Shown here one piece after another: positions 1-11,478 of a stretch of 11,478 nt of DNA (the stretch's first letter is position 1; each line of letters begins with the position of its first letter). The DNA lies in the UHGV virus genome UHGV-0377753; one strand, written 5' to 3'. The stretch comes from a virus. A model generated the notes under the pieces. The model made no database searches, had not been told where the DNA came from, and was given only the letters and a program-made list of their open reading frames with translations. The position numbers were made by a program, and so were the translations under genes.

Positions 1-46
1 AGGTTGCTCCGGGCTATGAAATAGAAAAATGAATCCGTTGAAGCCT
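1..46. other. Host chromosomal flank (bacterial B arm of attL) abutting the prophage
   Basis: The sequence ccgttgaagcct immediately left of the 15-bp core matches the E. coli attB(lambda) left arm as I recall it, not the phage P arm. This is a memory-based call on only 46 bp. Confidence 0.6.
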
Positions 47-61
47 GCTTTTTTATACTAA
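47..61. other. attL: attL core (common core O, GCTTTTTTATACTAA) of lambda site-specific recombination
   Basis: Exact 15-bp lambda att core, followed by the phage P' arm (agttggcattataaaaaagcattgcttatcaatttgttgcaacgaacaggtcactatcagtcaaaataaaatcattat) and the int gene. Confidence 0.85.
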
Positions 62-84
62 GTTGGCATTATAAAAAAGCATTG

Positions 85-138
85 CTTATCAATTTGTTGC
101 AACGAACAGGTCACTATCAGTCAAAATAAAATCATTAT
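85..138. promoter_or_regulatory. P' arm protein-binding sites: IHF H' site (atcaatttgttg, 88-99) and Int arm-type sites P'1-P'3 (caggtcactat 107-117, cagtcaaaat 118-127, aaaatcattat 128-138)
   Basis: Matches the IHF consensus WATCAANNNNTTR and tandem arm-type Int sites of the C/AAGTCACTAT family; the position relative to the core is as in lambda attP. Confidence 0.6.
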
Positions 139-1205
139 TTGATTTCAATTTTGTCCCACTCCCTGCCTCTGTCATCACGATACTGTGATGCCATGGTGTC
201 CGACTTATGCCCGAGAAGATGTTGAGCAAACTTATCGCTTATCTGCTTCTCATAGAGTCTTGCAGACAAACTGCGCAACTCGTGAAAGGTAGGCGGATCC
301 CCTTCGAAGGAAAGACCTGATGCTTTTCGTGCGCGCATAAAATACCTTGATACTGTGCCGGATGAAAGCGGTTCACGACGAGTAGATGCAATTATGGTTT
401 CTCCGCCAAGAATCTTTTTGCATTTATCAAGTGTTTCCTTCATTGATATCCCGAGAGCATCAACATGCAATGTTGTTGGGATGGCAATTTTTACGCCTGT
501 TTTGCTTTGCTCGACATAAAGATATCCATCTACGATATCAGACCACTTCATTTCGCATAAATCACCAACTCGCTGCCCGGTAACAACAGCCAGTTCCATT
601 GCAAGTCTAAGCCAACATGGTGATGATTCTGCTGCTTGATAAATTTTCAGGTATTCGTCAGCCGTAAGTCTTGATCTCCTTACCTCTGATTTTGCAGCGC
701 GAGTGGCTGCGACCGGGTTTGTTGTTATATGGCCTTCAGCTATAGCCTCTCGGAATGCATCGCTCAGTGTTGATCTGATTAACTTGGCTGATGCCGCCTT
801 GCCCTCGTCTATGTATCCATTGAGCATTGCCGCAATTTCTTTTGTGGTGATGTCTTCAAGTGGAGCATCAGGCAGACCCCTCCTTATTGCTTTAATTTTG
901 CTCATGTAATTTATGAGTGTCTTCTGCTTGATTCCTCTGCTGGCCAGGATTTTTTCGTAGCGATCAAGCCATGAATGTAACGTAACGGAATTATCACTGT
1001 TGATTCTCGCTGTCAGAGGCTTGTGTTTGTGTCCTGAAAATAACTCAATGTTGGCCTGTATAGCTTCAGTGATTGCGATTCGCCTGTCTCGGCCTAATCC
1101 AAACTCTTTACCCGTCCTTGGGTCCCTGTAGCAGTAATATCCATTGTTTCTTATATAAAGGTTAGGGGGTAAATCCCGGCGCTCATGACTTCGCCTTCTT
1201 CCCAT
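135..1205 (-). CDS. int: Integrase (tyrosine recombinase), 356 aa
   Basis: The ORF translation MGRRRSHERRDLPPNLYIRNNGYYCYRDPRTGKEFGLG... is recognisable as lambda Int over its full length; TAA stop at 135-137 overlaps arm site P'3. Confidence 0.97.
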   Translation of the reverse strand: MGRRRSHERRDLPPNLYIRNNGYYCYRDPRTGKEFGLGRDRRIAITEAIQANIELFSGHKHKPLTARINSDNSVTLHSWLDRYEKILASRGIKQKTLINYMSKIKAIRRGLPDAPLEDITTKEIAAMLNGYIDEGKAASAKLIRSTLSDAFREAIAEGHITTNPVAATRAAKSEVRRSRLTADEYLKIYQAAESSPCWLRLAMELAVVTGQRVGDLCEMKWSDIVDGYLYVEQSKTGVKIAIPTTLHVDALGISMKETLDKCKKILGGETIIASTRREPLSSGTVSRYFMRARKASGLSFEGDPPTFHELRSLSARLYEKQISDKFAQHLLGHKSDTMASQYRDDRGREWDKIEIK

Positions 1206-1401
1206 TTCTGATCCTCTTCAAAAGGCTACCTGTTACTGGTCGATTTAAGTCAACCTTTACCGCTGATTCGTGGAACAGATACTCTCTTCCATCCTTAACC
1301 GGAGGAGGGAATATCCTGCACTCGCGTACCCATCGACGAACTGTTTCAAGGCTTCTTGGGCGTCGCTGGCGTGCGTTCCACTCCTGAAGTGTCAAGTACA
1401 T
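1183..1401 (-). CDS. xis: Excisionase, 72 aa
   Basis: Translation MYLTLQEWNARQRRPRSLETVRRWVRECRIFPPPVKDGREYLFHESAVKVDL... is lambda Xis; overlaps the int start by 23 nt as in lambda. Confidence 0.95.
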   Translation of the reverse strand: MYLTLQEWNARQRRPRSLETVRRWVRECRIFPPPVKDGREYLFHESAVKVDLNRPVTGSLLKRIRNGKKAKS

Positions 1402-1430
1402 CGCAAAGTCTCCGCAATTACACGCAAGAA
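1380..1430 (-). promoter_or_regulatory. pI promoter region with cII-binding TTGC-N6-TTGC repeat (1414-1427) overlapping the xis start
   Basis: Minus strand reads cTTGCgtgtaaTTGCggagactttgcgATG; TTGC-N6-TTGC is the cII recognition motif and its position at the xis 5' end corresponds to lambda pI. Confidence 0.6.
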
Positions 1431-1448
1431 AAAACCGCCATCAGGCGG
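1429..1448 (-). terminator. Short hairpin plus U-run at the 3' end of orf55 (putative intrinsic terminator)
   Basis: ccgcc (1435-1439) / ggcgg (1444-1448) stem with a 4-nt loop; the minus-strand RNA continues into UUUUUU (1429-1434). Confidence 0.4.
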
Positions 1449-1608
1449 CTTGGTGTTCTTTCAGTTCTTCAATTCGAATATTGGTTACGTCTGCATGTGC
1501 TATCTGCGCCCACAGCATCCAGTGGTCATAGCAGTCGCTGATGTTCTCGGCTTCGATAACTCTGTTGAATGGTTCTCCATTCCATTCACCTGTGACTCGG
1601 AAGTGCAT
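1441..1608 (-). CDS. Small conserved lambda protein (orf55-like), 55 aa
   Basis: ATG at 1608 preceded by GGAG Shine-Dalgarno (ggagatgataaATG); translation MHFRVTGEWNGEPFNRVIEAENISDCYDHWMLWAQIAHADVTNIRIEELKEHQAA. Falls below the ORF-track length cutoff; position and size match the small ORF between xis and ea8.5 in lambda (from memory). Confidence 0.6.
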   Translation of the reverse strand: MHFRVTGEWNGEPFNRVIEAENISDCYDHWMLWAQIAHADVTNIRIEELKEHQAA

Positions 1609-1620
1609 TTATCATCTCCA

Positions 1621-1647
1621 TAAAAAAAACTCGCCGTAGCGAGTTCA
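1621..1647 (-). terminator. Intrinsic terminator (7-bp stem aactcgc/gcgagtt, loop cgta, followed by U8 on the minus-strand RNA)
   Basis: Forward ataaaaaaaactcgccgtagcgagtt; on the minus strand a perfect hairpin is followed by UUUUUUUU. Confidence 0.6.
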
Positions 1648-1804
1648 GATAAAAGAAATCCCCGCGAGTGCGAGGATAGTTATTCATTGTCGATATTTAC
1701 ATTTATTTCGAATATCTTTACTGGGTAATCGCCAAAGTCATATATTTTTTATTCTGTTTTATAAGCACTACCAAGTACTGCTTATTACAAATAAGAAAAG
1801 GCTG

Positions 1805-1834
1805 AAAAAAATATTTAAGGCCACAACTGTGGCC
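1805..1834 (-). terminator. Intrinsic terminator immediately downstream of the DUF1311-like gene
   Basis: Palindrome ggccacaactgtggcc (1819-1834) followed on the minus strand by UUAAAUAUUUUUUU. Confidence 0.65.
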
Positions 1835-1844
1835 CTAAATTTAC

Positions 1845-2543
1845 TTACGGCACTGCGTTAATCAGATTACAAATACCTCTTTTGGCAGGGTCTGAATTCA
1901 ACTTCTGAAAATTGGCGTTCAACATAGCCGTGTGTAAGTGATTCTCAACCTCAAAGAATAGGTCGATTTTGCCCTCTTTGGCTGCCTGTTTCTTCCAAAT
2001 ATTCACTTGGTCATCAGCAATACGACTAGCGCAAGTGAACAAGAACGAACTGCCTCTAGGAATGGATGTCGTGCTGTAATACTCACCATCTACTTCTACA
2101 TATTTAGCTCGGAATGACTCTAAGGTTAGCTTATTGCCGTTCTTGACCGACTTAGCTTCTGCCTTACTTGTATCTTCCTGCTCTTTAGAATGTTTCTGCG
2201 CCGACGTGGGTATGTCATTGGCCGCTGTTACGCTGACTGAACTCCCCAAACCTTTGAGGCCATTAATTTGGATAAGATAAGCCAGCTCCAGAGCCTTATT
2301 ATCAGTGAGTTTTCCACGCATATTTACCCACTGACGTTGAACCATTTTTAGGGTGTCTGCGTTCTCTGGGTTTCCTTTGAGGGCACTAGAATAGGCAGAG
2401 CTAAGCTGTTCGTCTAATTTTGACAGACGTTCGTTATCGCAGATTTTATGTTCGATTGCTGTCGAAGCCTTTTGGCAGTCAAAGCTGGCTGCAAATGCAC
2501 CCGGCGATGCCACTAACAATGATGCCAGTAGGATATTTTTCAT
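1845..2543 (-). CDS. Secreted (periplasmic) protein with N-terminal DUF1311 / LprI-like domain, 232 aa; occupies the position of lambda ea8.5
   Basis: Preferred start ATG 2543 with GGAG Shine-Dalgarno (gtatttatGGAGtgaatATG); the track ORF extends to 2570. Signal peptide MKNILLASLLVASPGAFA|AS. The motif FDCQKASTAIEHKICDNERLSKLDEQLSSAYSSALK fits the DUF1311 C..A.T..E..IC....L..LD..L...Y pattern. Much larger than the 93-aa Ea8.5. Confidence 0.75.
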   Translation of the reverse strand: MKNILLASLLVASPGAFAASFDCQKASTAIEHKICDNERLSKLDEQLSSAYSSALKGNPENADTLKMVQRQWVNMRGKLTDNKALELAYLIQINGLKGLGSSVSVTAANDIPTSAQKHSKEQEDTSKAEAKSVKNGNKLTLESFRAKYVEVDGEYYSTTSIPRGSSFLFTCASRIADDQVNIWKKQAAKEGKIDLFFEVENHLHTAMLNANFQKLNSDPAKRGICNLINAVP

Positions 2544-2571
2544 ATTCACTCCATAAATACAAAAGCGCATT

Positions 2572-2612
2572 ACTATAGCACTTAACCGATCGCTTATCTC
2601 GCCCGTTCGTCA
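2572..2612 (-). promoter_or_regulatory. Putative sigma70 promoter for the DUF1311 moron (extended -10 TGcTATAGT)
   Basis: Minus strand reads ...gttaagTGcTATAGTaatgcgcttttgtatttatggagtgaatATG; the -35 is weak. Confidence 0.35.
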
Positions 2613-2673
2613 TTCTTATCTAACCAGAACATGCGACTGCCACAGCACATGTCGAGGATTGCTGCATGTCCAG

Positions 2674-3222
2674 TCACTGGTTGCCTCCTTTGCGAAGCTG
2701 GGCGGCTAACTCATCACATATGTGCGTCAAAGAGCAAAGTTTGATTGATGGATGTTCGCGCATCATCTCCACCCCCTGCGCCCGTACTTCAGCCAGGAAA
2801 GCATCGGTGGCTGGCATATTTCCTGTTGCCTTCATGGCCTCCAAAATAACCAGAACACCATCTCTCCCAATCTCCTCGCAGATAACCTCGGTGCTGTCGC
2901 CAACAACATCGCAGAATTCCTGAACTGCTTTACGAGCCAGCTCATTCTCCGCCGCCAGCGCCGAAAACTTCTCGTGTGCCAACTTAACAGCTGCATCAGC
3001 CTGCTTAATTGACTCAGTCGCTTTCTGGTGGTCTTCGGCCAGCCCTGCTAAATCAGCCTCCAGTTCGGCTAGGCGTTCATTTAATGCATCTCGTTCATCC
3101 AGTAGAGCCAGCACAACCTGAGGTGTGACTTTCATACGAAATGCCAGCAATTTTTGAGGTGTTGCTACTGTTTCAATTGCTACTGCCGCCTCACGCAGTG
3201 CCTGAGAGTTAATTTCGCTCAC
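2674..3222 (-). CDS. ea22: Ea22-like early protein, 182 aa, coiled-coil rich
   Basis: N-terminus MSEINSQALREAA... and the 182-aa length match lambda Ea22; the start overlaps the orf73 stop (ATGA). Confidence 0.8.
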   Translation of the reverse strand: MSEINSQALREAAVAIETVATPQKLLAFRMKVTPQVVLALLDERDALNERLAELEADLAGLAEDHQKATESIKQADAAVKLAHEKFSALAAENELARKAVQEFCDVVGDSTEVICEEIGRDGVLVILEAMKATGNMPATDAFLAEVRAQGVEMMREHPSIKLCSLTHICDELAAQLRKGGNQ

Positions 3223-3440
3223 TTCGAACCTCTCTGTTTACTGATAAGTTCCAGATCCTCCTGGCAACTTGCACAAGTCCGACAACCCTGAACGGCCAAG
3301 CGTCTTCGTTCATCTATCGGATCGCCACACTCACAACAATGAGTGGCAGATATAGCCTGGTGGTTCAGGCGGCGCATTTTTATTGCTGTGTTGCGCTGTA
3401 ATTCTTCAATTTCTGATGCTGAATCAATGATGTCTGCCAT
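3219..3440 (-). CDS. TraR/DksA-family C4 zinc-finger protein (lambda orf73-like), 73 aa
   Basis: 73 aa with CxxC...CxxC (HCCECGD ... CRTCASC), the same size and architecture as F-plasmid TraR; lambda Orf73 is a described TraR homolog. Shine-Dalgarno aggga upstream. Confidence 0.8.
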   Translation of the reverse strand: MADIIDSASEIEELQRNTAIKMRRLNHQAISATHCCECGDPIDERRRLAVQGCRTCASCQEDLELISKQRGSK

Positions 3441-3490
3441 CTTTCATTAATCCCTGAATTGTTGGTTAATACGCTTGAGGGTGAATGCGA

Positions 3491-3516
3491 ATAATAAAAA
3501 AGGAGCCTGTAGCTCC
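3491..3516 (-). terminator. Intrinsic terminator-like hairpin within the leftward early operon (possibly tL3-equivalent)
   Basis: Stem ggagc (3502-3506) / gctcc (3512-3516) with loop ctgta, followed on the minus strand by UUUUUUAUUAUU. Confidence 0.45.
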
Positions 3517-3538
3517 CTGATGATTTTGCTTTTCATGT

Positions 3539-3820
3539 TCACCGTTCCTTAAAGACGCCGTTCAACATGCCGATCGCCAGGCTTAAATGAGTCGGTGTGA
3601 ATCCCATCAGCGTTACCGTTTCGCGGTGCTTCTTTAGTACGCTACGGCAAATGTCATCGACGTTTTTATCCGGAAACTGCTGTCTGGCTTTTTTGATTTC
3701 AGAATTAGCCTGACGGGCAATGCTGCGAAGGGCGTTTTCTTGCTGAGGTGTCATTGAACAAGCCCCATGTCGGCAAGCATAAGCACACAGAATATGAAGC
3801 CCGCTGCCAGAAAAATGCAT
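3539..3820 (-). CDS. Hypothetical protein in the lambda orf61 frame, 93 aa (alternative start 3754 gives 71 aa)
   Basis: Open frame MHFSGSGLHILCAYACRHGACSMTPQQENALRSIARQANSEIKKARQQFPDKNVDDICRSV...; an in-frame ATG at 3850 is cut off by TGA at 3821-3823 directly before this ATG. It ends just upstream of the terminator at 3491-3516. Confidence 0.45.
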   Translation of the reverse strand: MHFSGSGLHILCAYACRHGACSMTPQQENALRSIARQANSEIKKARQQFPDKNVDDICRSVLKKHRETVTLMGFTPTHLSLAIGMLNGVFKER

Positions 3821-3830
3821 TCAGTGGTTG

Positions 3831-4022
3831 TCATACCTGGTCTCTCTCATCTGCTTCTGCTTTCGCCACCATCATTTCCAGCTTTTGTGAAAGGGATGCG
3901 GCTAACGTATGAAATTCTTCGTCTGTTTCTACTGGTATTGGCACAAACCTGACTCCAATTTGAGCGAGGCTATGTGCCATCTCGATACTCGTTCTTAACT
4001 CAACGGGAGATGCTTTGTGCAT
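3831..4022 (-). CDS. Lambda Orf63-like protein, 63 aa
   Basis: Translation [63 protein letters not shown]; position and size as lambda orf63. Confidence 0.8.
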   Translation of the reverse strand: MHKASPVELRTSIEMAHSLAQIGVRFVPIPVETDEEFHTLAASLSQKLEMMVAKAEADERDQV

Positions 4023-4177
4023 ACAGCTCCCCGTTTATTATTTATCTCCTCAGCCAGCCGCTGTGCTTTCAGGGGATTTCTGATAACAGAAAGGCCGGGA
4101 AATACCCAGCCTCGCTTTGTAATGGAGTAGACGAAAGTGATCGCGCCTACCCGGATATTATCGTGAGGATGCGTCAT
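3995..4177 (-). CDS. Lambda Orf60a-like protein, 60 aa (the track ORF extends 2 codons further upstream)
   Basis: Translation [60 protein letters not shown]; overlaps the exo stop by 4 nt and orf63 by 28 nt, as in lambda. Confidence 0.7.
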
Positions 4178-4854
4178 CGCCATTGCTCCCCAAATACAAA
4201 ACCAATTTCAGCCAGTGCCTCGTCCATTTTTTCGATGAACTCCGGCACCATCTCGTCAAAACTCGCCATGTAATTTTCATCCCGCTCAACCACGACATAA
4301 TGCAGGCCTTCACGCTTCATTCGTGGGTCATAGTTGGCAAAGTACCAGGCATCTTTTCGCGTCACCCACATGCTGTACTGCACCTGGGCCATGTAAGCCG
4401 ATTTTATGGCCTCGAAACCACCGAGCCGGAACTTCATGAAATCCCGGGAGGTAAACGGGCATTTCAGTTCAAGGCCGTTGCCGTCACTGCATAAACCATC
4501 GGGAGAGCAGGCGGTGCGCATACTTTCGTCGCGATAGATGATCGGGGATTCAGTAACATTAACGCCGGAAGTGAACTCAAAGAGGGTTCTGGCGTCGTTC
4601 TCGTACTGTTTTCCCCAGGCCAGCGCCTTAGCGTTAACTTCCGGAGCCACACCGGTGCAAACCTCAGCCAGCAGGGTGTGGAAGTAGGACATTTTCATGT
4701 CAGGCCACTTCTTTCCTGAGCGGGGCTTTGCTATCACGTTGTGAACTTCTGAAGCGGTGATGACGCCGAGCCGTAATTTGTGCCATGCATCATCCCCCTG
4801 TTCGACAGCTCTCACGTCGATCCCGGTACGCTGCAGGATAATGTCCGGTGTCAT
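4174..4854 (-). CDS. exo: Lambda exonuclease (Red alpha), 226 aa
   Basis: Full-length match to lambda Exo ([65 protein letters not shown]...). Confidence 0.97.
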
Positions 4855-5636
4855 GCAGCCACCTTCTGTTCAGAGGCTTTCTGTTTCAGGAATCCAAGAG
4901 CTTTCATTGCTTCGGCCTGTGTCAGTTCTGACGATGCGCGAATGTCGCGGCGAAATATCTGGGAACAGAGCGGCAATAAGTCGTCATCCCATGTTTTGTC
5001 CAGGGCAATCAGCATAGTGTTAATCTCCTGCATGGTTTCATCGTTAACCGGAGTGATGTCGCGTTCCGGCTGACGTTCTGCAGTGTATGCGGTATTTTCG
5101 ACAATGCGCTCGGCTTCATCCTTGTCATAGATACCAGCAAATCCGAAGGCCAGACGGGCACACTGAATCATGGCTTTATGCCGTAACATCCGTTTGGGAT
5201 GCGACTGCCACGGTCCGGTGATTTCTCTGCCTTCGCGGGTTTTGAATGGTTCGCGGCGGCATTCATCCATCCACTCGGTAACGCAGATCGGATGATTACG
5301 GTCCTTGCGGTAAATCCGGCATGTACATGATTCATTGTCCTGCTCAAAGTCCATGCCATCAAACTGCTGGTTTTCATTGATGATACGGGACCAGCCATCA
5401 ACGCCCACCACCGGAACGATGCCGTTCTGCTTGTCAGGGAAGGCGTAAATTTCTTTCGTCCACGGATTAAGGCCGTACTGGTTGGCGACGATCAACAATG
5501 CGATGAACTGCGCATCGCTGGCATCGCCTTTAAATGCCGTCTGGCGAAGAGTGGTGATCAGTTCCTGTGGGTCGACAGAATCCATGCCGACACGTTCAGC
5601 CAGCTTCCCTGCCAGCGTTGCGAGTGCTGTACTCAT
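4851..5636 (-). CDS. bet: Red beta single-strand annealing protein, 261 aa
   Basis: Full-length match to lambda Bet ([261 protein letters not shown]); 4-nt overlap with exo. Confidence 0.97.
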
Positions 5637-5641
5637 CCGTT

Positions 5642-6058
5642 TTATACCTCTGAATCAATATCAACCTGATGGTGAGCAATGGTTTCAACCATGTACCGGA
5701 TGTGTTCTGCCATGCGCTCCTGAAACTCAACATCGTCATCAAACGCACGGGTAATGGCTTTTTTGCTGGCCCCGTGGCGTTGCAAATGATCGATGCATAG
5801 CGATTCAAACAGGTGCTGGGGCAGGCCTTTTTCCATGTCGTCTGCCAGTTCTGCCTCTTTCTCTTCACGGGCTATCTGCTGGTAGTGACGCGCCCAGCTC
5901 TGAGCCTCAAGACGATCCTGAATGTAATAAGCGTTCATGGCCGAACTCCTGAAATAGCTGTGAAAATATCGCCCGCGAAATGCCGGGCTGATTAGGAAAA
6001 CAGGAAAGGGGGTTAGTGAATGCTTTTGCTTGATCTCAGTTTCAGTATTAATATCCAT
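5642..6058 (-). CDS. gam: Gam (RecBCD inhibitor), 138-aa long form; the internal start MNAYYIQ gives the 98-aa GamS form
   Basis: Translation [138 protein letters not shown] matches lambda Gam. Confidence 0.95.
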
Positions 6059-6156
6059 TTTTTATAAGCGTCGACGGCCTCACGAAACATCTTTTCATCG
6101 CCAATAAAAGTGGCAATAGTGAATTTTGTCTGGATAGCCATAAGTTTTTTATCCAT
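6013..6156 (-). CDS. kil: Kil (host cell-division inhibitor), 47 aa
   Basis: ATG at 6156; translation [47 protein letters not shown]; overlaps the gam start and the cIII 3' end as in lambda. Below the track cutoff as a separate start (the track shows an 89-aa extended frame). Confidence 0.85.
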
Positions 6157-6289
6157 TTTTGGGTACTCCTGGCTGATTAAGTATGTCGATAAGGCGTTTC
6201 CATCCGTCACGTAATTTACGGGTGATTCGTTCAAGTAAAGATTCGGAAGGGCAGCCAGCAACAGGCCACCCTGCAATGGCATATTGCAT
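6149..6289 (-). CDS. cIII: cIII (FtsH/HflB inhibitor), 46 aa here, C-terminally shorter than the 54-aa lambda protein
   Basis: ATG at 6289 with Shine-Dalgarno AGGAGC; translation [46 protein letters not shown] then TAA at 6149-6151. The track ORF carries a spurious upstream extension. Confidence 0.85.
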   Translation of the reverse strand: MQYAIAGWPVAGCPSESLLERITRKLRDGWKRLIDILNQPGVPKNG

Positions 6290-6361
6290 GGTGTGCTCCT
6301 TATTTATACATAACGAAAAACGCCTCGAGTGAAGCGTTATTGGTATGCGGTAAAGCCGCAC

Positions 6362-6730
6362 TCAGGCGGCCTTGATAGCCATATCATCTGAATCAAATAT
6401 TCCTGATGTATCGATATCGGTAATTCTTATTCCTTCGCTACCATCCATTGGAGGCCATCCTTCCTGACCATTTCCATCATTCCAGTCGAACTCACACACA
6501 ACACCATATGCATTTAAGTCGCTTGAAATTGCTATAAGCAGAGCATGTTGCGCCAGCATGATTAATACAGCATTTAATACAGAGCCGTGTTTATTGAGTC
6601 GGTATTCAGAGTCTGACCAGAAATTATTAATCTGGTGAAGTTTTTCCTCTGTCATTACGTCATGGTCGATTTCAATTTCTATTGATGCTTTCCAGTCGTA
6701 ATCAATGATGTATTTTTTGATGTTTGACAC
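6362..6730 (-). CDS. ea10: Ea10 (lambda Ssb-like early protein), 122 aa, apparent GTG start
   Basis: Translation MSNIKKYIIDYDWKASIEIEIDHDVMTEEKLHQINNFWSDSEYRLNKHGSVLNAVLIMLAQHALLIAISSDLNAYGVVCEFDWNDGNGQEGWPPMDGSEGIRITDIDTSGIFDSDDMAIKAA matches lambda Ea10; GAGGA Shine-Dalgarno lies upstream of GTG 6730. Confidence 0.9.
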   Translation of the reverse strand: MSNIKKYIIDYDWKASIEIEIDHDVMTEEKLHQINNFWSDSEYRLNKHGSVLNAVLIMLAQHALLIAISSDLNAYGVVCEFDWNDGNGQEGWPPMDGSEGIRITDIDTSGIFDSDDMAIKAA

Positions 6731-6748
6731 CTATTCATATCCTCATAG

Positions 6749-6776
6749 ATAAAAAATCGCCCTCACACTGGAGGGC
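6749..6776 (-). terminator. Intrinsic terminator in the pL operon upstream of ea10 (tL-type)
   Basis: Stem gccctc/gagggc (6759-6764 / 6771-6776) with loop acactg, followed on the minus-strand RNA by GAUUUUUUAU. Confidence 0.6.
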
Positions 6777-6899
6777 AAAGAAGATTTCCAATAATCAGAA
6801 CAAGTCGGCTCCTGTTTAGTTACGAGCGACATTGCTCCGTGTATTCACTCGTTGGAATAAATACACAGTGCAGTGTTTATTAGTATGCCTGTCTTTTAA

Positions 6900-7797
<898 letters not shown>

Positions 7798-7955
7798 CTG
7801 GATTCTCTTGTCAGTTAGCTTTGGTGGTGTGTGGGAGTCGTAGTCCTGAACGAAAACACCCCACGATTGGCTCATTTGCAGCTAATCCGGATTCGCACTT
7901 CCGGCCAATGTTTCGTTTCGTATCACACACCCCAAAGCCTTCTGCTTTGAATGCT

Positions 7956-7987
7956 GCCCTTCTTCAGGGCTTAATTTTTAAGAGCAT
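7956..7987 (-). promoter_or_regulatory. nutL: nutL (boxB hairpin 7956-7970, GCCCTGAAGAAGGGC on the minus strand; boxA 7978-7986)
   Basis: Exact lambda nutL boxB on the minus strand; the adjacent boxA reads TGCTCTTAA on the minus strand. Confidence 0.85.
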
Positions 7988-8019
7988 CACCTTCATGTGG
8001 GTTAGTGCGTCCTGCTGGT

Positions 8020-8090
8020 GTGTTTAGTATCACCGCTAGTGGTATTTGTGTCAACACCGCCAGAGATAATTTATCACCGCAGATGGTTAT
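8020..8090 (-). promoter_or_regulatory. pL promoter with operators oL1 (8028-8044), oL2 (8052-8068), oL3 (8072-8088)
   Basis: -35 TTGACA (revcomp of 8049-8054) and -10 GATACT (revcomp of 8026-8031) on the minus strand. Three 17-bp CI/Cro operator half-site pairs: tatcaccgctagtggta, caacaccgccagagata, tatcaccgcagatggtt. Confidence 0.9.
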
Positions 8091-8242
8091 CTGTATGTTT
8101 TTTATATAGATTTATTTTTTGCAGGGTTGTGTGGCTTGGGAGGTGATCGAGAGATCAGAATTGCGTTGTTTAGTGAGTTGCACCTATTAATTTTAAAATA
8201 AATACAATTGGTTATGTGTTTTTAGGTGGGGCGATCGTGAGG

Positions 8243-8269
8243 CAAAGAAAACCCGGCTCGGTGGCCGGG
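8243..8269 (-). terminator. Intrinsic terminator ending the cI-distal immunity transcript, immediately after the NYN gene stop
   Basis: Stem cccggc/gccggg (8252-8257 / 8264-8269) with loop tcggtg, followed on the minus strand by UUUUCUUUG. It sits where lambda has the terminator after rexB. Confidence 0.7.
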
Positions 8270-8278
8270 TTGATGGGA

Positions 8279-9136
8279 TTATCGTTTATTTCTTTGATGT
8301 TTCTTTGCAGACTCAGCTTGAGTGTTTCCATACCTGCGTTTACCGCTATTGTTTTTTCCCCTAGGCTTGCCTTTTTTTCGATCTTCCCACCAGTCAGGTG
8401 CCGGGTCTGGCTCAACATGTAAAGCATCGGCAAGTCCTGATATCAAGCTGTATGACTGAACTCCATCAATGTGCTCTGACAGTGATGGGGTAACATTCTG
8501 TCTTAGTGGATCAAGAATAAAATCAATACCTTTAATTCTGGCGTGTTTGGCGGCAGGCACAAAGTCTGAGTCCCCAGCAACAAGGACAATTACATCAACA
8601 AGTTTTTCATAAGCTAAAGTCGTGATATCCATCCCTAGCTTGATATCAACTTGTTTTTGTTTGATGTCATAGTAAAAATCATCATTTGTCAGTTCATCCC
8701 ATTTTTTCGTTCCTTTCATCAGAGCATCAAGGGAGAATGTAGTTAGTTGCCATCGCTTATTATCAACAAGATTCCCTAATCTTAAGGCTGTTTTTCGAGT
8801 TTTTCTTAACTCTTCATGCAGCTCCGTTCTCAGAATATATGATTTTTCGAGTTTGAAATTCTTGCGACCAGGCGTCTTATTGCCAGGCTCAGGAAGTGGA
8901 AGGCGTGTTTGAATGTCGAGTGGTGGACAGTCATAGAAGTAAATTCTATAAAGCTCAAGCGGTTCCCTACGTTCTTGTGATTGACGTTTTCCATTAAGAT
9001 GGGAAAGAACCATTGACCATATTACTTTCATTATGCATTGCGCAGTCAGTTCATGCTCGGCGAAGTGTTTACGATGCGTAGCATGAACACGCTGCATGAA
9101 AAAACCCGCATCAATTAAAATTGCTGCTTTCTTCAT
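8279..9136 (-). CDS. NYN-domain (PIN-like, LabA/YacP-type) predicted RNase with a highly basic C-terminal tail, 285 aa; occupies the rexA-rexB slot between cI and pL
   Basis: N-terminal motif MKKAAILIDAGFF and C-terminal motif DIKLGMDITTLAYEKLVDVIVLVAGDSDFVPAAKHARIKGIDFIL match the two conserved NYN blocks (Asp in IDAG; GDSDF). The tail WWEDRKKGKPRGKNNSGKRRYGNTQAESAKKHQRNKR is Lys/Arg-rich. AT-rich codon usage. Confidence 0.8.
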   Translation of the reverse strand: MKKAAILIDAGFFMQRVHATHRKHFAEHELTAQCIMKVIWSMVLSHLNGKRQSQERREPLELYRIYFYDCPPLDIQTRLPLPEPGNKTPGRKNFKLEKSYILRTELHEELRKTRKTALRLGNLVDNKRWQLTTFSLDALMKGTKKWDELTNDDFYYDIKQKQVDIKLGMDITTLAYEKLVDVIVLVAGDSDFVPAAKHARIKGIDFILDPLRQNVTPSLSEHIDGVQSYSLISGLADALHVEPDPAPDWWEDRKKGKPRGKNNSGKRRYGNTQAESAKKHQRNKR

Positions 9137-9216
9137 AAGAGTCCCAAAAAAATAGCCCAGAGCCGTTATGCAGATATTAACAATTGTCTGCGAACGGGGC
9201 TGGGCTTGGTTTAATT

Positions 9217-9246
9217 AATCTATGCCAAGTTGACTGTGCCGTCAAC
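9217..9246 (-). promoter_or_regulatory. Predicted sigma70 promoter for the NYN gene (-35 TTGACG, 17-bp spacer, -10 TAGATT) overlapping a perfect inverted repeat GTTGAC-N6-GTCAAC (9229-9246)
   Basis: Minus strand reads TTGACGgcacagtcaacttggcaTAGATT; the palindrome gttgactgtgccgtcaac spans the -35 and spacer. Confidence 0.55.
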
Positions 9247-9263
9247 ATAAAACTTACTTCCTA

Positions 9264-9980
<717 letters not shown>

Positions 9981-9983
9981 TTA

Positions 9984-10052
9984 AATCTATCACCGCAAGG
10001 GATAAATATCTAACACCGTGCGTGTTGACTATTTTACCTCTGGCGGTGATAA
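9984..10052. promoter_or_regulatory. Right operator: oR3 (9988-10004), oR2 (10011-10027), oR1 (10035-10051); pRM on the minus strand (-10 9984-9989, -35 10007-10012); pR on the plus strand (-35 TTGACT 10025-10030, -10 GATAAT 10047-10052)
   Basis: tatcaccgcaagggata / taacaccgtgcgtgttg / tacctctggcggtgata are the lambda oR3, oR2 and oR1 sequences. Confidence 0.93.
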
Positions 10053-10068
10053 TAGTTGCATGTACTAA

Positions 10069-10278
<210 letters not shown>

Positions 10279-10285
10279 ATAACCC

Positions 10286-10317
10286 CGCTCTTACCCATCC
10301 CCGCCCTGAAAAAGGGC
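10286..10317 (+). promoter_or_regulatory. nutR: nutR (boxA CGCTCTTAC 10286-10294; boxB GCCCTGAAAAAGGGC 10303-10317)
   Basis: Canonical lambda nutR boxA and boxB hairpin sequence. Confidence 0.9.
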
Positions 10318-10390
10318 ATCCAATTAAACCACACCTATGGTGTATGCATTTATTTGCATACATTCAATCAATTGTTATCTAAGGAAATAC
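10318..10390 (+). terminator. tR1 region (Rho-dependent terminator between nutR and cII)
   Basis: Positional equivalence to lambda tR1; C-rich, unstructured RNA (accacacctatggtgtatgcatttatttgcatacattcaatcaattg). No intrinsic hairpin plus U-tract is expected here. Confidence 0.5.
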
Positions 10391-10425
10391 TTACATATGG
10401 TTCGTGCAAACAAACGCAACGAGGC
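10385..10425 (-). promoter_or_regulatory. pRE with cII-binding TTGC-N6-TTGC (10406-10419) inside the 5' end of cII
   Basis: Minus strand reads cgTTGCgtttgtTTGCacgaaccatatg, the direct repeat recognised by CII at pRE. Confidence 0.7.
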
Positions 10426-10690
10426 ACTACGAATCGAGAGTGCGTTGCTTAACAAAATCGCAATGCTTGGAACTGAGAAGACAGCGGAAGCTGTGGGAGT
10501 TGATAAGTCGCAGATCAGCAGGTGGAAGAGAGACTGGATTCCCAAGTTCTCAATGCTGCTTGCTGTTCTTGAATGGGGGGTCGTTGACGACGACATGGCT
10601 CGATTGGCGCGACAAGTTGCTGCGATTCTCACCAATAAAAAACGCCCGGCGGCAACCGAGCGTTCTGAACAAATCCAGATGGAGTTCTGA
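10397..10690 (+). CDS. cII: CII transcriptional activator, 97 aa
   Basis: Translation from MVRANKRNEALRIESALLNKIAMLGTEKTAEAVGVDKSQISRWKRDWIPKFSMLLAVLEWGVVDDDMARLARQVAAILTNKKRPAATERSEQIQMEF matches lambda CII; the track ORF is extended upstream. Confidence 0.95.
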   Translation: MVRANKRNEALRIESALLNKIAMLGTEKTAEAVGVDKSQISRWKRDWIPKFSMLLAVLEWGVVDDDMARLARQVAAILTNKKRPAATERSEQIQMEF

Positions 10691-10712
10691 GGTCATTACT
10701 GGATCTATCAAC
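10636..10712 (-). ncRNA. oop: oop antisense RNA (approximate ends), overlapping the 3' end of cII
   Basis: The minus-strand RNA ends in a GC-rich hairpin (gccgccgggcg) followed by UUUUUUAUU (forward 10634-10652); location between cII and O as in lambda. Ends are estimated from memory of the lambda map, not measured. Confidence 0.5.
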
Positions 10713-10722
10713 AGGAGTCATT

Positions 10723-11451
10723 ATGACAAATACAGCAAAAATACTCAACTTCGGCAGAGGTAACTTTGCCGGACAGGAGCGTAATGTGGCAGATCTCGAT
10801 GATGGTTACGCCAGACTATCAAATATGCTGCTTGAGGCTTATTCGGGCGCAGATCTGACCAAGCGACAGTTTAAAGTGCTGCTTGCCATTCTGCGTAAAA
10901 CCTATGGGTGGAATAAACCAATGGACAGAATCACCGATTCTCAACTTAGCGAGATTACAAAGTTACCTGTCAAACGGTGCAATGAAGCCAAGTTAGAACT
11001 CGTCAGAATGAATATTATCAAGCAGCAAGGCGGCATGTTTGGACCAAATAAAAACATCTCAGAATGGTGTATCCCTCAAAACGAGGGACAATCCCCTAAA
11101 ACGAGGGATAAAACATCCCTCAAATTGGGGGATTGCTATCCCTCAAAACAGGGGGACACAAAAGACACTATTACAAAAGAAAAAAGAAAAGATTATTCGT
11201 CAGAGAATTCTGGCGAATCCTCTGACCAGCCAGAAAACGATCTTTCTGTGGTTAAACCGGATGCTGCAATTCAGAGCGGCAGCAAGTGGGGGACAGCAGA
11301 AGACCTGACCGCCACAGAGTGGATGTTTGACATGGTGACCATCTGTGCGGCGATGTTTTTCATAAATCCACCCCGTAAATCCAGTCAGTGTTTGTCAGGT
11401 CGAGTTTTGGTTTGCTGGCTGTCACGCCTGCCTGTTGCTTGTTACGGTTGA
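10723..11451 (+). CDS. O: Replication initiator O, N-terminal about 205 codons intact (iteron-binding domain); the frame departs from O after ...EWMFDMV at 11338 and ends in 36 unrelated residues
   Basis: Translation MTNTAKILNFGRGNFAGQERNVADLDDGYARLSNMLLEAYSGADLTKRQFKVLLAILRKTYGWNKPMDRITDSQLSEITKLPVKRCNEAKLELVRMNIIKQQGGMFGPNKNISEWCIPQNEGQSPKTRDK... matches lambda O up to FDMV; the tail TICAAMFFINPPRKSSQCLSGRVLVCWLSRLPVACYG is the antisense of the O/P junction. Confidence 0.8.
   Translation: MTNTAKILNFGRGNFAGQERNVADLDDGYARLSNMLLEAYSGADLTKRQFKVLLAILRKTYGWNKPMDRITDSQLSEITKLPVKRCNEAKLELVRMNIIKQQGGMFGPNKNISEWCIPQNEGQSPKTRDKTSLKLGDCYPSKQGDTKDTITKEKRKDYSSENSGESSDQPENDLSVVKPDAAIQSGSKWGTAEDLTATEWMFDMVTICAAMFFINPPRKSSQCLSGRVLVCWLSRLPVACYG
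11071..11200. repeat. ori-lambda: four O-binding iterons (11071-11088, 11091-11108, 11115-11132, 11137-11155) followed by an AT-rich unwinding region
   Basis: Iterons atccctcaaaacgaggga / atcccctaaaacgaggga / atccctcaaattggggga / atccctcaaaacaggggga, then acaaaagacactattacaaaagaaaaaagaaaag. Confidence 0.9.
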
Positions 11452-11478
11452 TTTCGAGCTGGGTCCACTTGTCGCGGA
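11339..11478 (-). pseudogene. Inverted fragment carrying the O 3' end (at least 38 codons, ...RDKWTQLEINRNKQQAGVTASKPKLDLTNTDWIYGVDL*) and the first 8 codons of P (MKNIAAQM) on the minus strand
   Basis: The reverse complement of 11341-11478 reads cgcgacaagtggacccagctcgaaatcaaccgtaacaagcaacaggcaggcgtgacagccagcaaaccaaaactcgacctgacaaacactgactggatttacggggtggatttATGAaaaacatcgccgcacagat, i.e. the O C-terminus with the O-stop/P-start ATGA overlap. Confidence 0.75.

What the first reader, a model, noticed from the sequence alone, without database searches (positions are those of the whole stretch)
11300..11478. Inversion or rearrangement breakpoint inside replication gene O: the O 3' end and P 5' end are present in reverse orientation
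The plus-strand O frame follows lambda O through ...AEDLTATEWMFDMV and then reads into unrelated residues. The reverse complement of 11341-11478 encodes the authentic O C-terminus (...TNTDWIYGVDL stop) fused by the ATGA overlap to the start of P (MKNIAAQM). The junction at 11338/11339 forms a quasi-palindrome (catggtga|ccatctg) built from ATGGT copies present in both O and P, with 1 nt of microhomology. This is consistent with a short inversion spanning the O 3' end to P codon 8 (whose other junction would lie just outside the window), a larger rearrangement, or an assembly artefact. If real, both O and P are disrupted and the prophage is replication-defective.
Basis: partly seen in the sequence, partly recalled or inferred. 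Interest (0 to 1): 0.65.

Follow-up and report, generated by a model that had tools for sequence, protein, structure and literature searches.

The report
Inverted tail at prophage contig end

Summary
Window 1-11338 is an integrated lambda-like prophage (attL at lambda attB, int to O). It matches Escherichia phage ev099 and about 50 complete E. coli genomes almost perfectly. At 11338/11339 gene O stops being colinear after residue 205. The sequence then jumps 306 bp ahead to P codon 9 and reads backwards, 100% identical, with 1 nt of microhomology.

Whether this is a real inversion cannot be settled without the reads. I lean to artefact (about 0.6).
- The junction is absent from 5,426 complete E. 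coli genomes, the phage records searched, IMG/VR, JGI metagenomes and the GTDB species genomes.
- None of about 4,400 O-P loci in complete genomes has the O C-terminus inverted.
- The only base difference from strain 104 over 11.3 kb lies 24 nt from the junction.
- The inverted tail is exactly 141 nt including the shared base. That is what a k=141 de Bruijn contig gives when it ends at a node shared with the normal sequence, so normal P DNA was probably in the same read set.

A real private rearrangement (about 0.33) stays open. One IMG/VR contig (L076) carries an independent, clean 757-bp inversion of the same O-P segment.

Either way the finding is of low general interest.

The parts
1..46 (.). 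E. coli chromosomal flank (ybhC side of lambda attB). Window base 1 is the first base after the ybhC coding sequence.
   Evidence: 100% match to E. coli chromosomes. In strain 104 (L003) ybhC ends at 4000 and the window starts at 4001. ev099 homology starts only at window 47.
47..61 (.). att core GCTTTTTTATACTAA of attL (B-O-P')
   Evidence: Read directly. The phage/host boundary is at 46/47. The lambda core sequence is from my own knowledge.
135..1205 (-). Integrase (356 aa), the first prophage gene
   Evidence: ORF. Annotated as integrase in ev099 and strain 104.
10723..11337 (+). O replication initiator, residues 1-205, colinear with wild type (N-terminal Phage_rep_O domain intact)
   Evidence: Pfam PF04492, E = 3.7e-36.
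11071..11157 (.). Four ori iterons (ATCCCTCAAAACGAGGGA-like) inside O, followed by an A-rich stretch to about 11195. The origin is intact and lies upstream of the junction.
   Evidence: family D1 (4 copies, spacing 20-24 nt) and D3.
11314..11314 (+). Private G->A substitution (Ala->Thr, AEDLTAAEW -> AEDLTATEW), 24 nt left of the junction. It is the only difference from strain 104 in 11,338 nt.
   Evidence: The 26-mer carrying A is absent from IMG/VR, JGI metagenomes and GTDB genomes. The 26-mer carrying G is in at least 120 IMG/VR contigs. The best complete-genome matches are 238/239.
11338..11339 (.). The junction. A at 11338 belongs to both alignments (1-nt microhomology). The local quasi-palindrome ATGGT-G-ACCAT spans 11332-11342.
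11338..11478 (-). Inverted tail of 141 nt. It holds P codons 1-8 plus 2 nt (11338-11363), the O stop (11360-11362) and O residues 262-299 (11363-11476). It is 100% identical to ev099 38406-38546 and strain 104.
   Evidence: The length equals one k=141 node (simulation).
10723..11451 (+). The resulting fusion ORF (242 aa): O residues 1-205 plus 37 residues read from the antisense of P and the O C-terminus.
   Evidence: Its exact product is not on record in 153 billion gene positions, and a search with a junction-spanning 51-aa peptide that contains the whole 37-residue tail found no homologue.

Best explanation
The inverted 140-141 nt is most likely not part of the bacterial chromosome as it exists in the cell. 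It looks like a chimeric DNA molecule or read (O up to residue 205 joined to the opposite strand 306 bp downstream) that a de Bruijn assembler attached to the tip of a contig.

The window itself looks like a provirus cut out of a longer contig. Its left edge falls exactly at the end of the host gene ybhC, and its right edge is the contig end. Its last 141 bases are exactly the first k-mer (k = 141, MEGAHIT's usual final k) that lies wholly in normal sequence. This is the node where the odd path rejoins sequence that other reads also reach from the normal P side.

**Shown:** the junction, its uniqueness, the adjacent private SNP, the 141-nt tail, and the intact state of O-P in all close relatives.

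**Inferred:** that 11478 is a contig end, that the assembler used k = 141, and that the junction and SNP come from one aberrant molecule.
For: - **Uniqueness.** The 25-mer across the junction has 0 hits in GTDB genomes, IMG/VR and JGI metagenomes. No alignment spans it in 5,426 complete E. coli genomes or in the 332 phage records that match this region, where every listed alignment stops at 11338. The fusion protein is not on record and its tail has no homologue.
- **Relatives are intact.** About 50 complete genomes carry this prophage at about 100% identity, and every alignment stops at 11338. In strain 104 and ev099, O (299 aa) and P (233 aa) are intact and colinear.
- **No inversion in finished genomes.** A synthetic query (O N-part plus reverse-complemented O C-part) reaches at most 52% coverage in any complete genome. 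So none of about 4,400 O-P loci has this segment inverted.
- **SNP next to the junction.** The single mismatch to strain 104 in 11,338 nt lies 24 nt from the junction. The chance of that is about 0.004. The variant is unseen elsewhere, while the control 26-mer is common.
- **Tail length.** The tail is 141 nt including the shared base. In a k = 141 unitig simulation, this end point appears only when the normal P codon 9|10 adjacency is also in the graph. It does not appear for a clonal inversion or a snap-back palindrome. k-max 141 is in common use with MEGAHIT.
- **Left edge.** The window starts exactly after ybhC, which fits a host-trimmed provirus whose other edge is the contig end.
- **Literature.** In Salmonella, candidate inversion junctions with less than 12 bp of inverted homology failed experimental verification (PMC3411829). 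In vitro polymerase chimeras are mostly inverted joins of nearby segments (PMC1855051).
Against: - **No branch at the SNP or junction.** The contig runs straight through both. In a unitig graph this means the normal path was absent or pruned there. That requires low coverage with a gap in the 306-bp stretch (scenario S2c), or else the junction allele was the majority.
- **Microhomology is short.** One nucleotide is less than most described in vitro chimera mechanisms use: 93.5% of proximal inverted MDA chimeras have at least 2 nt.
- **Not a graph artefact.** A shared k-mer cannot have created the join, so at least one physical molecule or read carried it.
- **Other contig ends look normal.** About 15 IMG/VR contig ends inside O-P are colinear to the last base.
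- **A real precedent exists.** L076 shows that a clean inversion of the same segment can occur inside a contig, and it shares some junction features with the window.
- **No reads.** None of this could be tested on reads.
Confidence: 0.6

Rival explanations
1. A real, private rearrangement of the prophage. It could be a simple 306-bp inversion (O codon 206 to P codon 9), or a more complex inverted duplication, formed by illegitimate (homology-independent) recombination or by replication template switching close to ori. O would lose its C-terminal P-binding part, P would be cut from its start, and the prophage would become replication-dead. The contig ends inside the inverted piece because another copy of the same O-3'/P-5' sequence (another lambdoid prophage, or a wild-type subpopulation) is present in the sample.
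For: - The contig passes the SNP and the junction without a branch. The k = 141 simulation reproduces the exact end point for 'real inversion plus a second P copy' (scenario S3).
- The 141-mer is at least 99% identical in 464 complete-genome records and occurs up to 5 times per genome, so a second copy is plausible.
- L076 (IMG/VR 2609459774_000006) has an independent, conservative, reciprocal 757-bp inversion of O codon 215 to P codon ~176, internal to a 25.8-kb contig, with 2-nt microhomology.
- L076's left breakpoint is 25 nt from the window's. Its junction also forms a 5-bp-stem palindrome (p about 0.03 each). Both right breakpoints fall in a GTTAAC.
- A mutation cluster (SNP plus junction) is compatible with error-prone replicative repair (my own knowledge).
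Against: - None of about 4,400 O-P loci in complete genomes is inverted.
- The junction and the SNP are both singletons everywhere.
- L076 is itself a singleton.
- The closest complete genomes listed each hold only this one O-P copy, so a second copy must come from elsewhere.
- The reciprocal junction is unseen.
- Verified spontaneous inversions in Salmonella needed at least 12 bp of inverted homology, and none lies at these breakpoints.
Confidence: 0.33
2. A programmed or recombinase-driven invertible segment (Hin/Gin/Pin-type or tyrosine-recombinase switch), or an inversion by recombination between inverted repeats flanking the O-3'/P-5' segment.
For: The junction is locally palindromic. A native imperfect inverted repeat (GATGTTTGACAT / ATGAAAAACATC, 10/12) lies 5 and 14 nt from the two breakpoints.
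Against: - The exchange points are outside that repeat.
- Only 1 nt is shared at the crossover.
- No pair of inverted recombination sites exists. The ATGGT copies are direct repeats.
- The inverted orientation is found in none of about 4,400 loci. A switch would show both states.
- L076 uses different breakpoints.
Confidence: 0.02
3. A long-read fold-back read (missed hairpin adapter, or template plus complement read as one strand), or a large chromosomal inversion by homologous recombination between two oppositely oriented lambdoid prophages.
For: Both are common sources of inverted joins (my own knowledge).
Against: - A fold-back read would turn back at one point and give a perfect palindrome. 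Here the forward part ends at ev099 38240 and the reverse part starts at 38546, skipping 306 bp.
- Homologous exchange between prophages joins O to O in the same reading direction and needs shared sequence at the crossover. Here O is joined head-to-head to P codon 9 with 1 nt shared.
Confidence: 0.03

Closest known systems
Lambda-type O-P replication module, as in Escherichia phage ev099 (NC_049953.1) and the attB-lambda prophage of E. coli strain 104 (NZ_CP029164.1)
   Same: Window 47-11338 is 99.97% identical to ev099, and window 1-11338 is 11,337/11,338 identical to strain 104. It has the same attL, int, xis, exo/bet/gam, N, NYN-domain gene, cI, cro, cII and O with four iterons.
   Different: In the references O continues colinearly (299 aa) and overlaps P by ATGA on the same strand. 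In the window the last 141 nt are that O-end/P-start piece on the opposite strand, with 165 nt (O residues 206-261) unseen.
Inverted chimeras made in vitro by polymerases (MDA chimeras, Lasken & Stockwell 2007, PMC1855051) and other chimeric library molecules
   Same: An inverted join of two segments a few hundred bp apart on the same molecule, with an intervening skipped stretch. This is the predominant chimera geometry: 85% inverted, with frequency falling as distance grows.
   Different: Most such chimeras use at least 2 nt of complementary priming; here there is 1 nt. Nothing shows that the source DNA was amplified.
Spontaneous inversions in enterobacterial chromosomes (Salmonella chemostat study, PMC3411829)
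   Same: A split-mapping junction with the two halves on opposite strands.
   Different: All verified inversions there had at least 12 bp of inverted homology at the endpoints, and candidates with 7-9 bp failed verification. The window has 1 nt.
L076 (IMGVR_UViG_2609459774_000006): a 757-bp inversion of O codon 215 to P codon ~176 in another lambdoid prophage
   Same: The same gene pair and the same kind of event (O C-terminus plus P N-terminus flipped). The left breakpoints are 25 nt apart. Microhomology is 1-2 nt. Junction 1 forms a 5-bp-stem palindrome, and the right breakpoint lies in a GTTAAC.
   Different: L076 shows both junctions inside a contig and is exactly conservative. It has a different O N-terminal type, a different P allele and a different right breakpoint, and it is also seen only once.

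Membership tests
Lambda O replication initiator (Pfam Phage_rep_O) | N-terminal origin-binding domain | tested here: met
   PF04492, residues 22-115, E = 3.7e-36, the same as wild-type O of strain 104.
Lambda O replication initiator (Pfam Phage_rep_O) | Origin iterons inside the gene | tested here: met
   Four 18-20-nt iterons at 11071-11157.
Lambda O replication initiator (Pfam Phage_rep_O) | Contiguous C-terminal part (residues 206-299) on the same strand, overlapping the P start | tested here: not met
   The frame leaves O after residue 205. Residues 262-299 are on the opposite strand. Residues 206-261 are not in the window.
Simple reciprocal inversion | First junction: colinear sequence joined to the reverse complement of downstream sequence | tested here: met
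   Window 11338 | ev099 38546 on the minus strand, 100% identity over 141 nt.
Simple reciprocal inversion | Second, reciprocal junction (inverted O codon 206 joined to P codon 9/10) | not testable with these tools
   It would lie about 165 nt beyond the end of the window. The source contig and reads are not available.
Simple reciprocal inversion | Seen in independent assemblies or supported by independent reads | tested here: not met
   0 hits for the junction in all collections. Read support is not testable.
Site-specific invertible DNA switch (Hin/Gin/Pin-type) | Pair of inverted recombination sites at the two breakpoints, with an identical crossover core | tested here: not met
   1 nt is shared; the flanking similarity is direct, not inverted.
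Site-specific invertible DNA switch (Hin/Gin/Pin-type) | Both orientations found among related genomes | tested here: not met
   None of about 4,400 O-P loci in complete genomes is in the inverted state.
Inverted-repeat-mediated inversion | Inverted repeats (about 12 bp or more) containing the exchange points | tested here: not met
   The nearest native inverted repeat (10/12) lies 5 and 14 nt away from the breakpoints.
Chimeric contig end (assembly or library artefact) | Odd segment confined to the contig tip, no longer than one read or k-mer | tested here: inconclusive
   The tail is 141 nt, which matches a k = 141 node. The left edge of the window coincides with a host gene end. That 11478 is a contig end is an inference.
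Chimeric contig end (assembly or library artefact) | Supported by one or very few molecules, while normal reads exist | not testable with these tools
   Needs the raw reads. The indirect hints are the private SNP 24 nt away and the need for the normal P adjacency in the graph.

The most novel reading that the evidence does not exclude
Both the window and L076 are real, and they mark a recurrent class of small (0.3-0.8 kb), homology-independent, conservative inversions. These flip the O C-terminus / P N-terminus segment just downstream of the lambda origin, with left breakpoints clustered within about 25 nt (O residues 205-214) and junctions that become short palindromes. That would point to a specific break-and-rejoin or template-switch process tied to origin firing, and to a one-step route to replication-dead prophages.
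Probability: 0.06. Interest if true: 0.45.

Novelty: not a real feature. Interest (0 to 1): 0.12.

Why it matters
If the junction is an artefact, the lesson is practical. The ends of short-read contigs, including host-trimmed proviruses in viral catalogues, can carry one k-mer's worth of chimeric sequence. That sequence creates false fusion genes (here a 242-aa 'O' protein) and false rearrangements.

If the junction is real, it is one more private way for a common lambda-like prophage to lose replication, which is ordinary prophage decay.

It would deserve attention only if the similarity to the independent L076 inversion reflects a true hotspot beside the lambda origin.

Tried and rejected
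- **Exact look-ups.** I searched for the junction 25-mer, the A-variant 26-mer, the fusion protein and its tail in every available collection. All were empty. A control 26-mer with the wild-type G worked.
- **False join in the assembly graph.** Rejected, because the two sides share only 1 nt. A physical read must carry the join.
- **Fold-back long-read chimera.** Rejected, because the turn is not symmetric; 306 bp are skipped.
- **Homologous recombination between prophages.** Rejected on geometry and lack of homology.
- **Invertase pseudo-sites.** I compared the L076 left site by eye with hix/gix half-sites recalled from memory. A GAAAACC match exists, but the crossover is 3-4 nt away from where an invertase would cut. 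Dropped.
- **Gyrase-type 4-bp staggered exchange.** The spacer lengths at the two junctions (1 and 3 nt) do not fit a 4-nt stagger cut at the shared 5-mers. Unresolved and not pursued.
- **Is the G->A at 11314 templated?** It raises the similarity of a 23-nt direct repeat within O (DLTAAEW / DLTNTDW regions, pair I1) from 17/23 to 18/23. A random substitution would do that about one time in three, so I gave it no weight.
- **HpaI-like cleavage at GTTAAC.** It fits L076 but is off by 1 nt for the window. This was a post-hoc idea.
- **L076 junction peptide search.** It found only a normal antisense-P ORF on a Logan contig, not a second case.
- **Two further IMG/VR scans.** They mostly returned the same contigs and no further inversion.

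Full report
**What is in the window**

The window is the left arm of a lambda-like prophage integrated at the lambda attachment site of E. coli.
- Bases 1-46 are chromosomal. Base 1 is the first base after the ybhC coding sequence of strain 104.
- The att core GCTTTTTTATACTAA is at 47-61.
- It is followed by int, xis, the recombination genes, N, an NYN-domain gene, cI, cro, cII and O.
- Window 47-11338 matches Escherichia phage ev099 (NC_049953.1) 26949-38240 with 3 mismatches.
- Window 1-11338 matches the chromosome of E. coli strain 104 with a single mismatch.
- About 50 complete E. coli genomes, many from poultry, hold the same prophage at this site.

**Checking the observation**

- The O frame (10723 onward) follows wild-type O through residue 205 (...EWMFDMV) and then reads 37 foreign residues to a stop at 11451.
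- The opposite strand of 11363-11476 encodes O residues 262-299. The stop overlaps the ATG of P, and P codons 1-8 follow.
- BLAST places window 11338-11478 on the minus strand of ev099 38406-38546 at 100% identity.
- The colinear and inverted alignments share only the A at 11338.
- So the sequence runs along O to ev099 38240, jumps 306 bp ahead and comes back.
- The ori iterons (11071-11157) and the N-terminal Phage_rep_O domain are intact upstream.
- The local quasi-palindrome ATGGT-G-ACCAT is produced by the join itself, from two ATGGT copies that are direct repeats in the native phage. They therefore could not have paired to prime an inversion.
- A 5-bp stem at a random O-P inversion junction occurs about 3% of the time.

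**Is the junction seen anywhere else? No.**
- No complete E. coli genome (5,426) has an alignment crossing it. All stop at 11338. None of the 332 matching phage records listed crosses it either.
- The junction 25-mer is absent from the GTDB species genomes, IMG/VR and the JGI metagenome contigs.
- The 242-aa fusion product is not among 153 billion recorded gene positions. A junction-spanning 51-aa peptide that contains the whole 37-residue tail has no homologue in 5.8 billion protein clusters.
- To ask the broader question I built a synthetic query: O N-part followed by the reverse complement of the O C-part. Any genome with this segment flipped, whatever the breakpoints, would match it in one piece. 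The best coverage in any complete genome was 52%.
- The O-end/P-start 141-mer occurs at 4,411 places in 3,217 genomes. So none of about 4,400 O-P loci in finished genomes is inverted.

**The neighbouring SNP**

The only difference from strain 104 in 11,338 nt is G->A at 11314, 24 nt from the junction.
- The chance that a lone substitution falls that close is about 0.004.
- The A variant is absent from all three sequence collections and from all complete genomes, where the best matches are 238/239. The G version is in at least 120 IMG/VR contigs.
- Junction and SNP therefore share one origin. Either they come from one aberrant molecule, or from one complex mutational event.

**The end of the window**

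Two coincidences suggest the window is a provirus trimmed from a longer contig, with 11478 as the contig end.
- The left edge abuts the ybhC coding sequence exactly.
- The inverted tail is exactly 141 nt when the shared A is included. MEGAHIT's usual final k is 141 (for usage). To my knowledge its contigs are unitigs that include the full terminal k-mer of the branching node.

I simulated k = 141 unitigs on the strain 104 sequence.
- A contig that passes the junction and stops exactly 140 nt after the shared base arises only if the normal adjacency on the P side (codon 9|10) is also present in the graph.
- Two scenarios give that result. One is a wild-type copy whose dead-end tips were clipped at a coverage gap, plus a chimeric fragment. 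The other is a real inversion plus a second lambdoid copy of the same P region.
- A clonal simple inversion gives an uninterrupted contig. A snap-back palindrome breaks elsewhere.
- So normal O-end/P-start DNA was very probably in the same read set. This alone does not separate artefact from real event.

**An unexpected precedent**

I screened 173 IMG/VR contigs containing this O-P type for pieces on the wrong strand. This gave one case, L076.
- In L076, O reads to ...KTIAPSAR (residue 214). The next 757 bp (the O C-terminus and P codons 1 to ~176) are inverted.
- Both junctions are internal to a 25.8-kb contig. The event is exactly conservative, and the microhomology is 2 nt (AA/TT).
- No complete genome and no other IMG/VR contig has it. 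A peptide search found only a normal antisense ORF.
- L076 shares three features with the window. The left breakpoints are 25 nt apart. Its first junction also forms a 5-bp-stem palindrome (GCCAG-AAA-CTGGC). Its right breakpoint also lies in a GTTAAC.
- These parallels are suggestive, but they rest on two singletons and were partly noticed after the fact.
- About 15 IMG/VR contigs that end inside O-P are colinear to their last base. Inverted tails are therefore not routine at these ends either.

**Weighing the two readings**

Points for an artefact:
- The junction and the SNP are both unique.
- The SNP clusters with the junction at a contig tip.
- No inversion appears among about 4,400 finished loci.
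- Inverted joins of nearby segments are the predominant in vitro chimera type (PMC1855051).
- In Salmonella, candidate inversions with less than 12 bp of inverted homology were not verified (PMC3411829).

Points for a real event:
- The contig passes the SNP and the junction without a branch.
- The microhomology is only 1 nt, which is atypical for polymerase chimeras.
- L076 is a precedent.

I put the artefact at about 0.6, a real private rearrangement at about 0.33, and other explanations at a few per cent. Only the reads or the DNA can decide.

**Consequences if real**

O would lack residues 206-299. From established lambda biology these include the part that recruits P, and P would be severed after codon 8/9. 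The origin and the O DNA-binding domain would remain, but the prophage could not replicate. This step is inference and was not tested.

**Novelty**

An artefact is not a feature. A real event would be one more private inactivating rearrangement in a very common prophage. The only reading with some reach is a recurrent origin-proximal inversion hotspot, which I rate at about 6%.

Noticed in passing
L076 4574-6276 (IMGVR_UViG_2609459774_000006): An independent, exactly conservative 757-bp inversion of the O C-terminus plus P codons 1 to ~176 in another lambdoid prophage. Both junctions are inside the contig, with 2-nt AA/TT microhomology. The left breakpoint is 25 nt from the window's. It is seen only once.
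   Followed up: partly
window 1 / L003 4000-4001: The window starts exactly one base after the ybhC coding sequence. It looks like a provirus cut from a longer contig at a host-gene boundary, not a random slice.
   Followed up: partly
window 8279-9136 (-): A 285-aa NYN-domain protein sits between N and cI, where lambda has rexAB. In strain 104 the identical DNA is annotated by RefSeq as a 117-aa protein plus a pseudogene fragment, although the ORF is open.
   Followed up: no
window 6978-7481 (+): A 167-aa ORF with no Pfam match lies on the strand opposite to the pL operon, between the DUF2528 gene and N. It is annotated as a hypothetical protein in strain 104.
   Followed up: no
window 11302-11324 and 11379-11401: Native O contains a 23-nt imperfect direct repeat encoding DLTAAEW (residues ~194-201) and DLTNTDW (~289-296). 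In the window the two copies face each other as an inverted repeat. The private G->A at 11314 makes them one base more alike.
   Followed up: partly
relatives of the window: NZ_AP038246.1, NZ_CP126952.1, NZ_CP024138.1: In three complete genomes the same prophage arm is interrupted by an IS2 (IS3-family) insertion: the match comes in two pieces spanning 12.7 kb instead of 11.3 kb.
   Followed up: no
IMG/VR loci L066, L045, L053, L047, L089, L040 and others: Many draft-genome provirus contigs end inside the O C-terminus or P, so this shared module is a frequent assembly break point. All of these ends are colinear with the reference.
   Followed up: partly
window 3130 and 8360: The two other differences from phage ev099 (T/C at 3130 and C/T at 8360) are shared with strain 104. 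The window therefore belongs to the chromosomal lineage seen in poultry and human isolates, not to the ev099 isolate itself.
   Followed up: no
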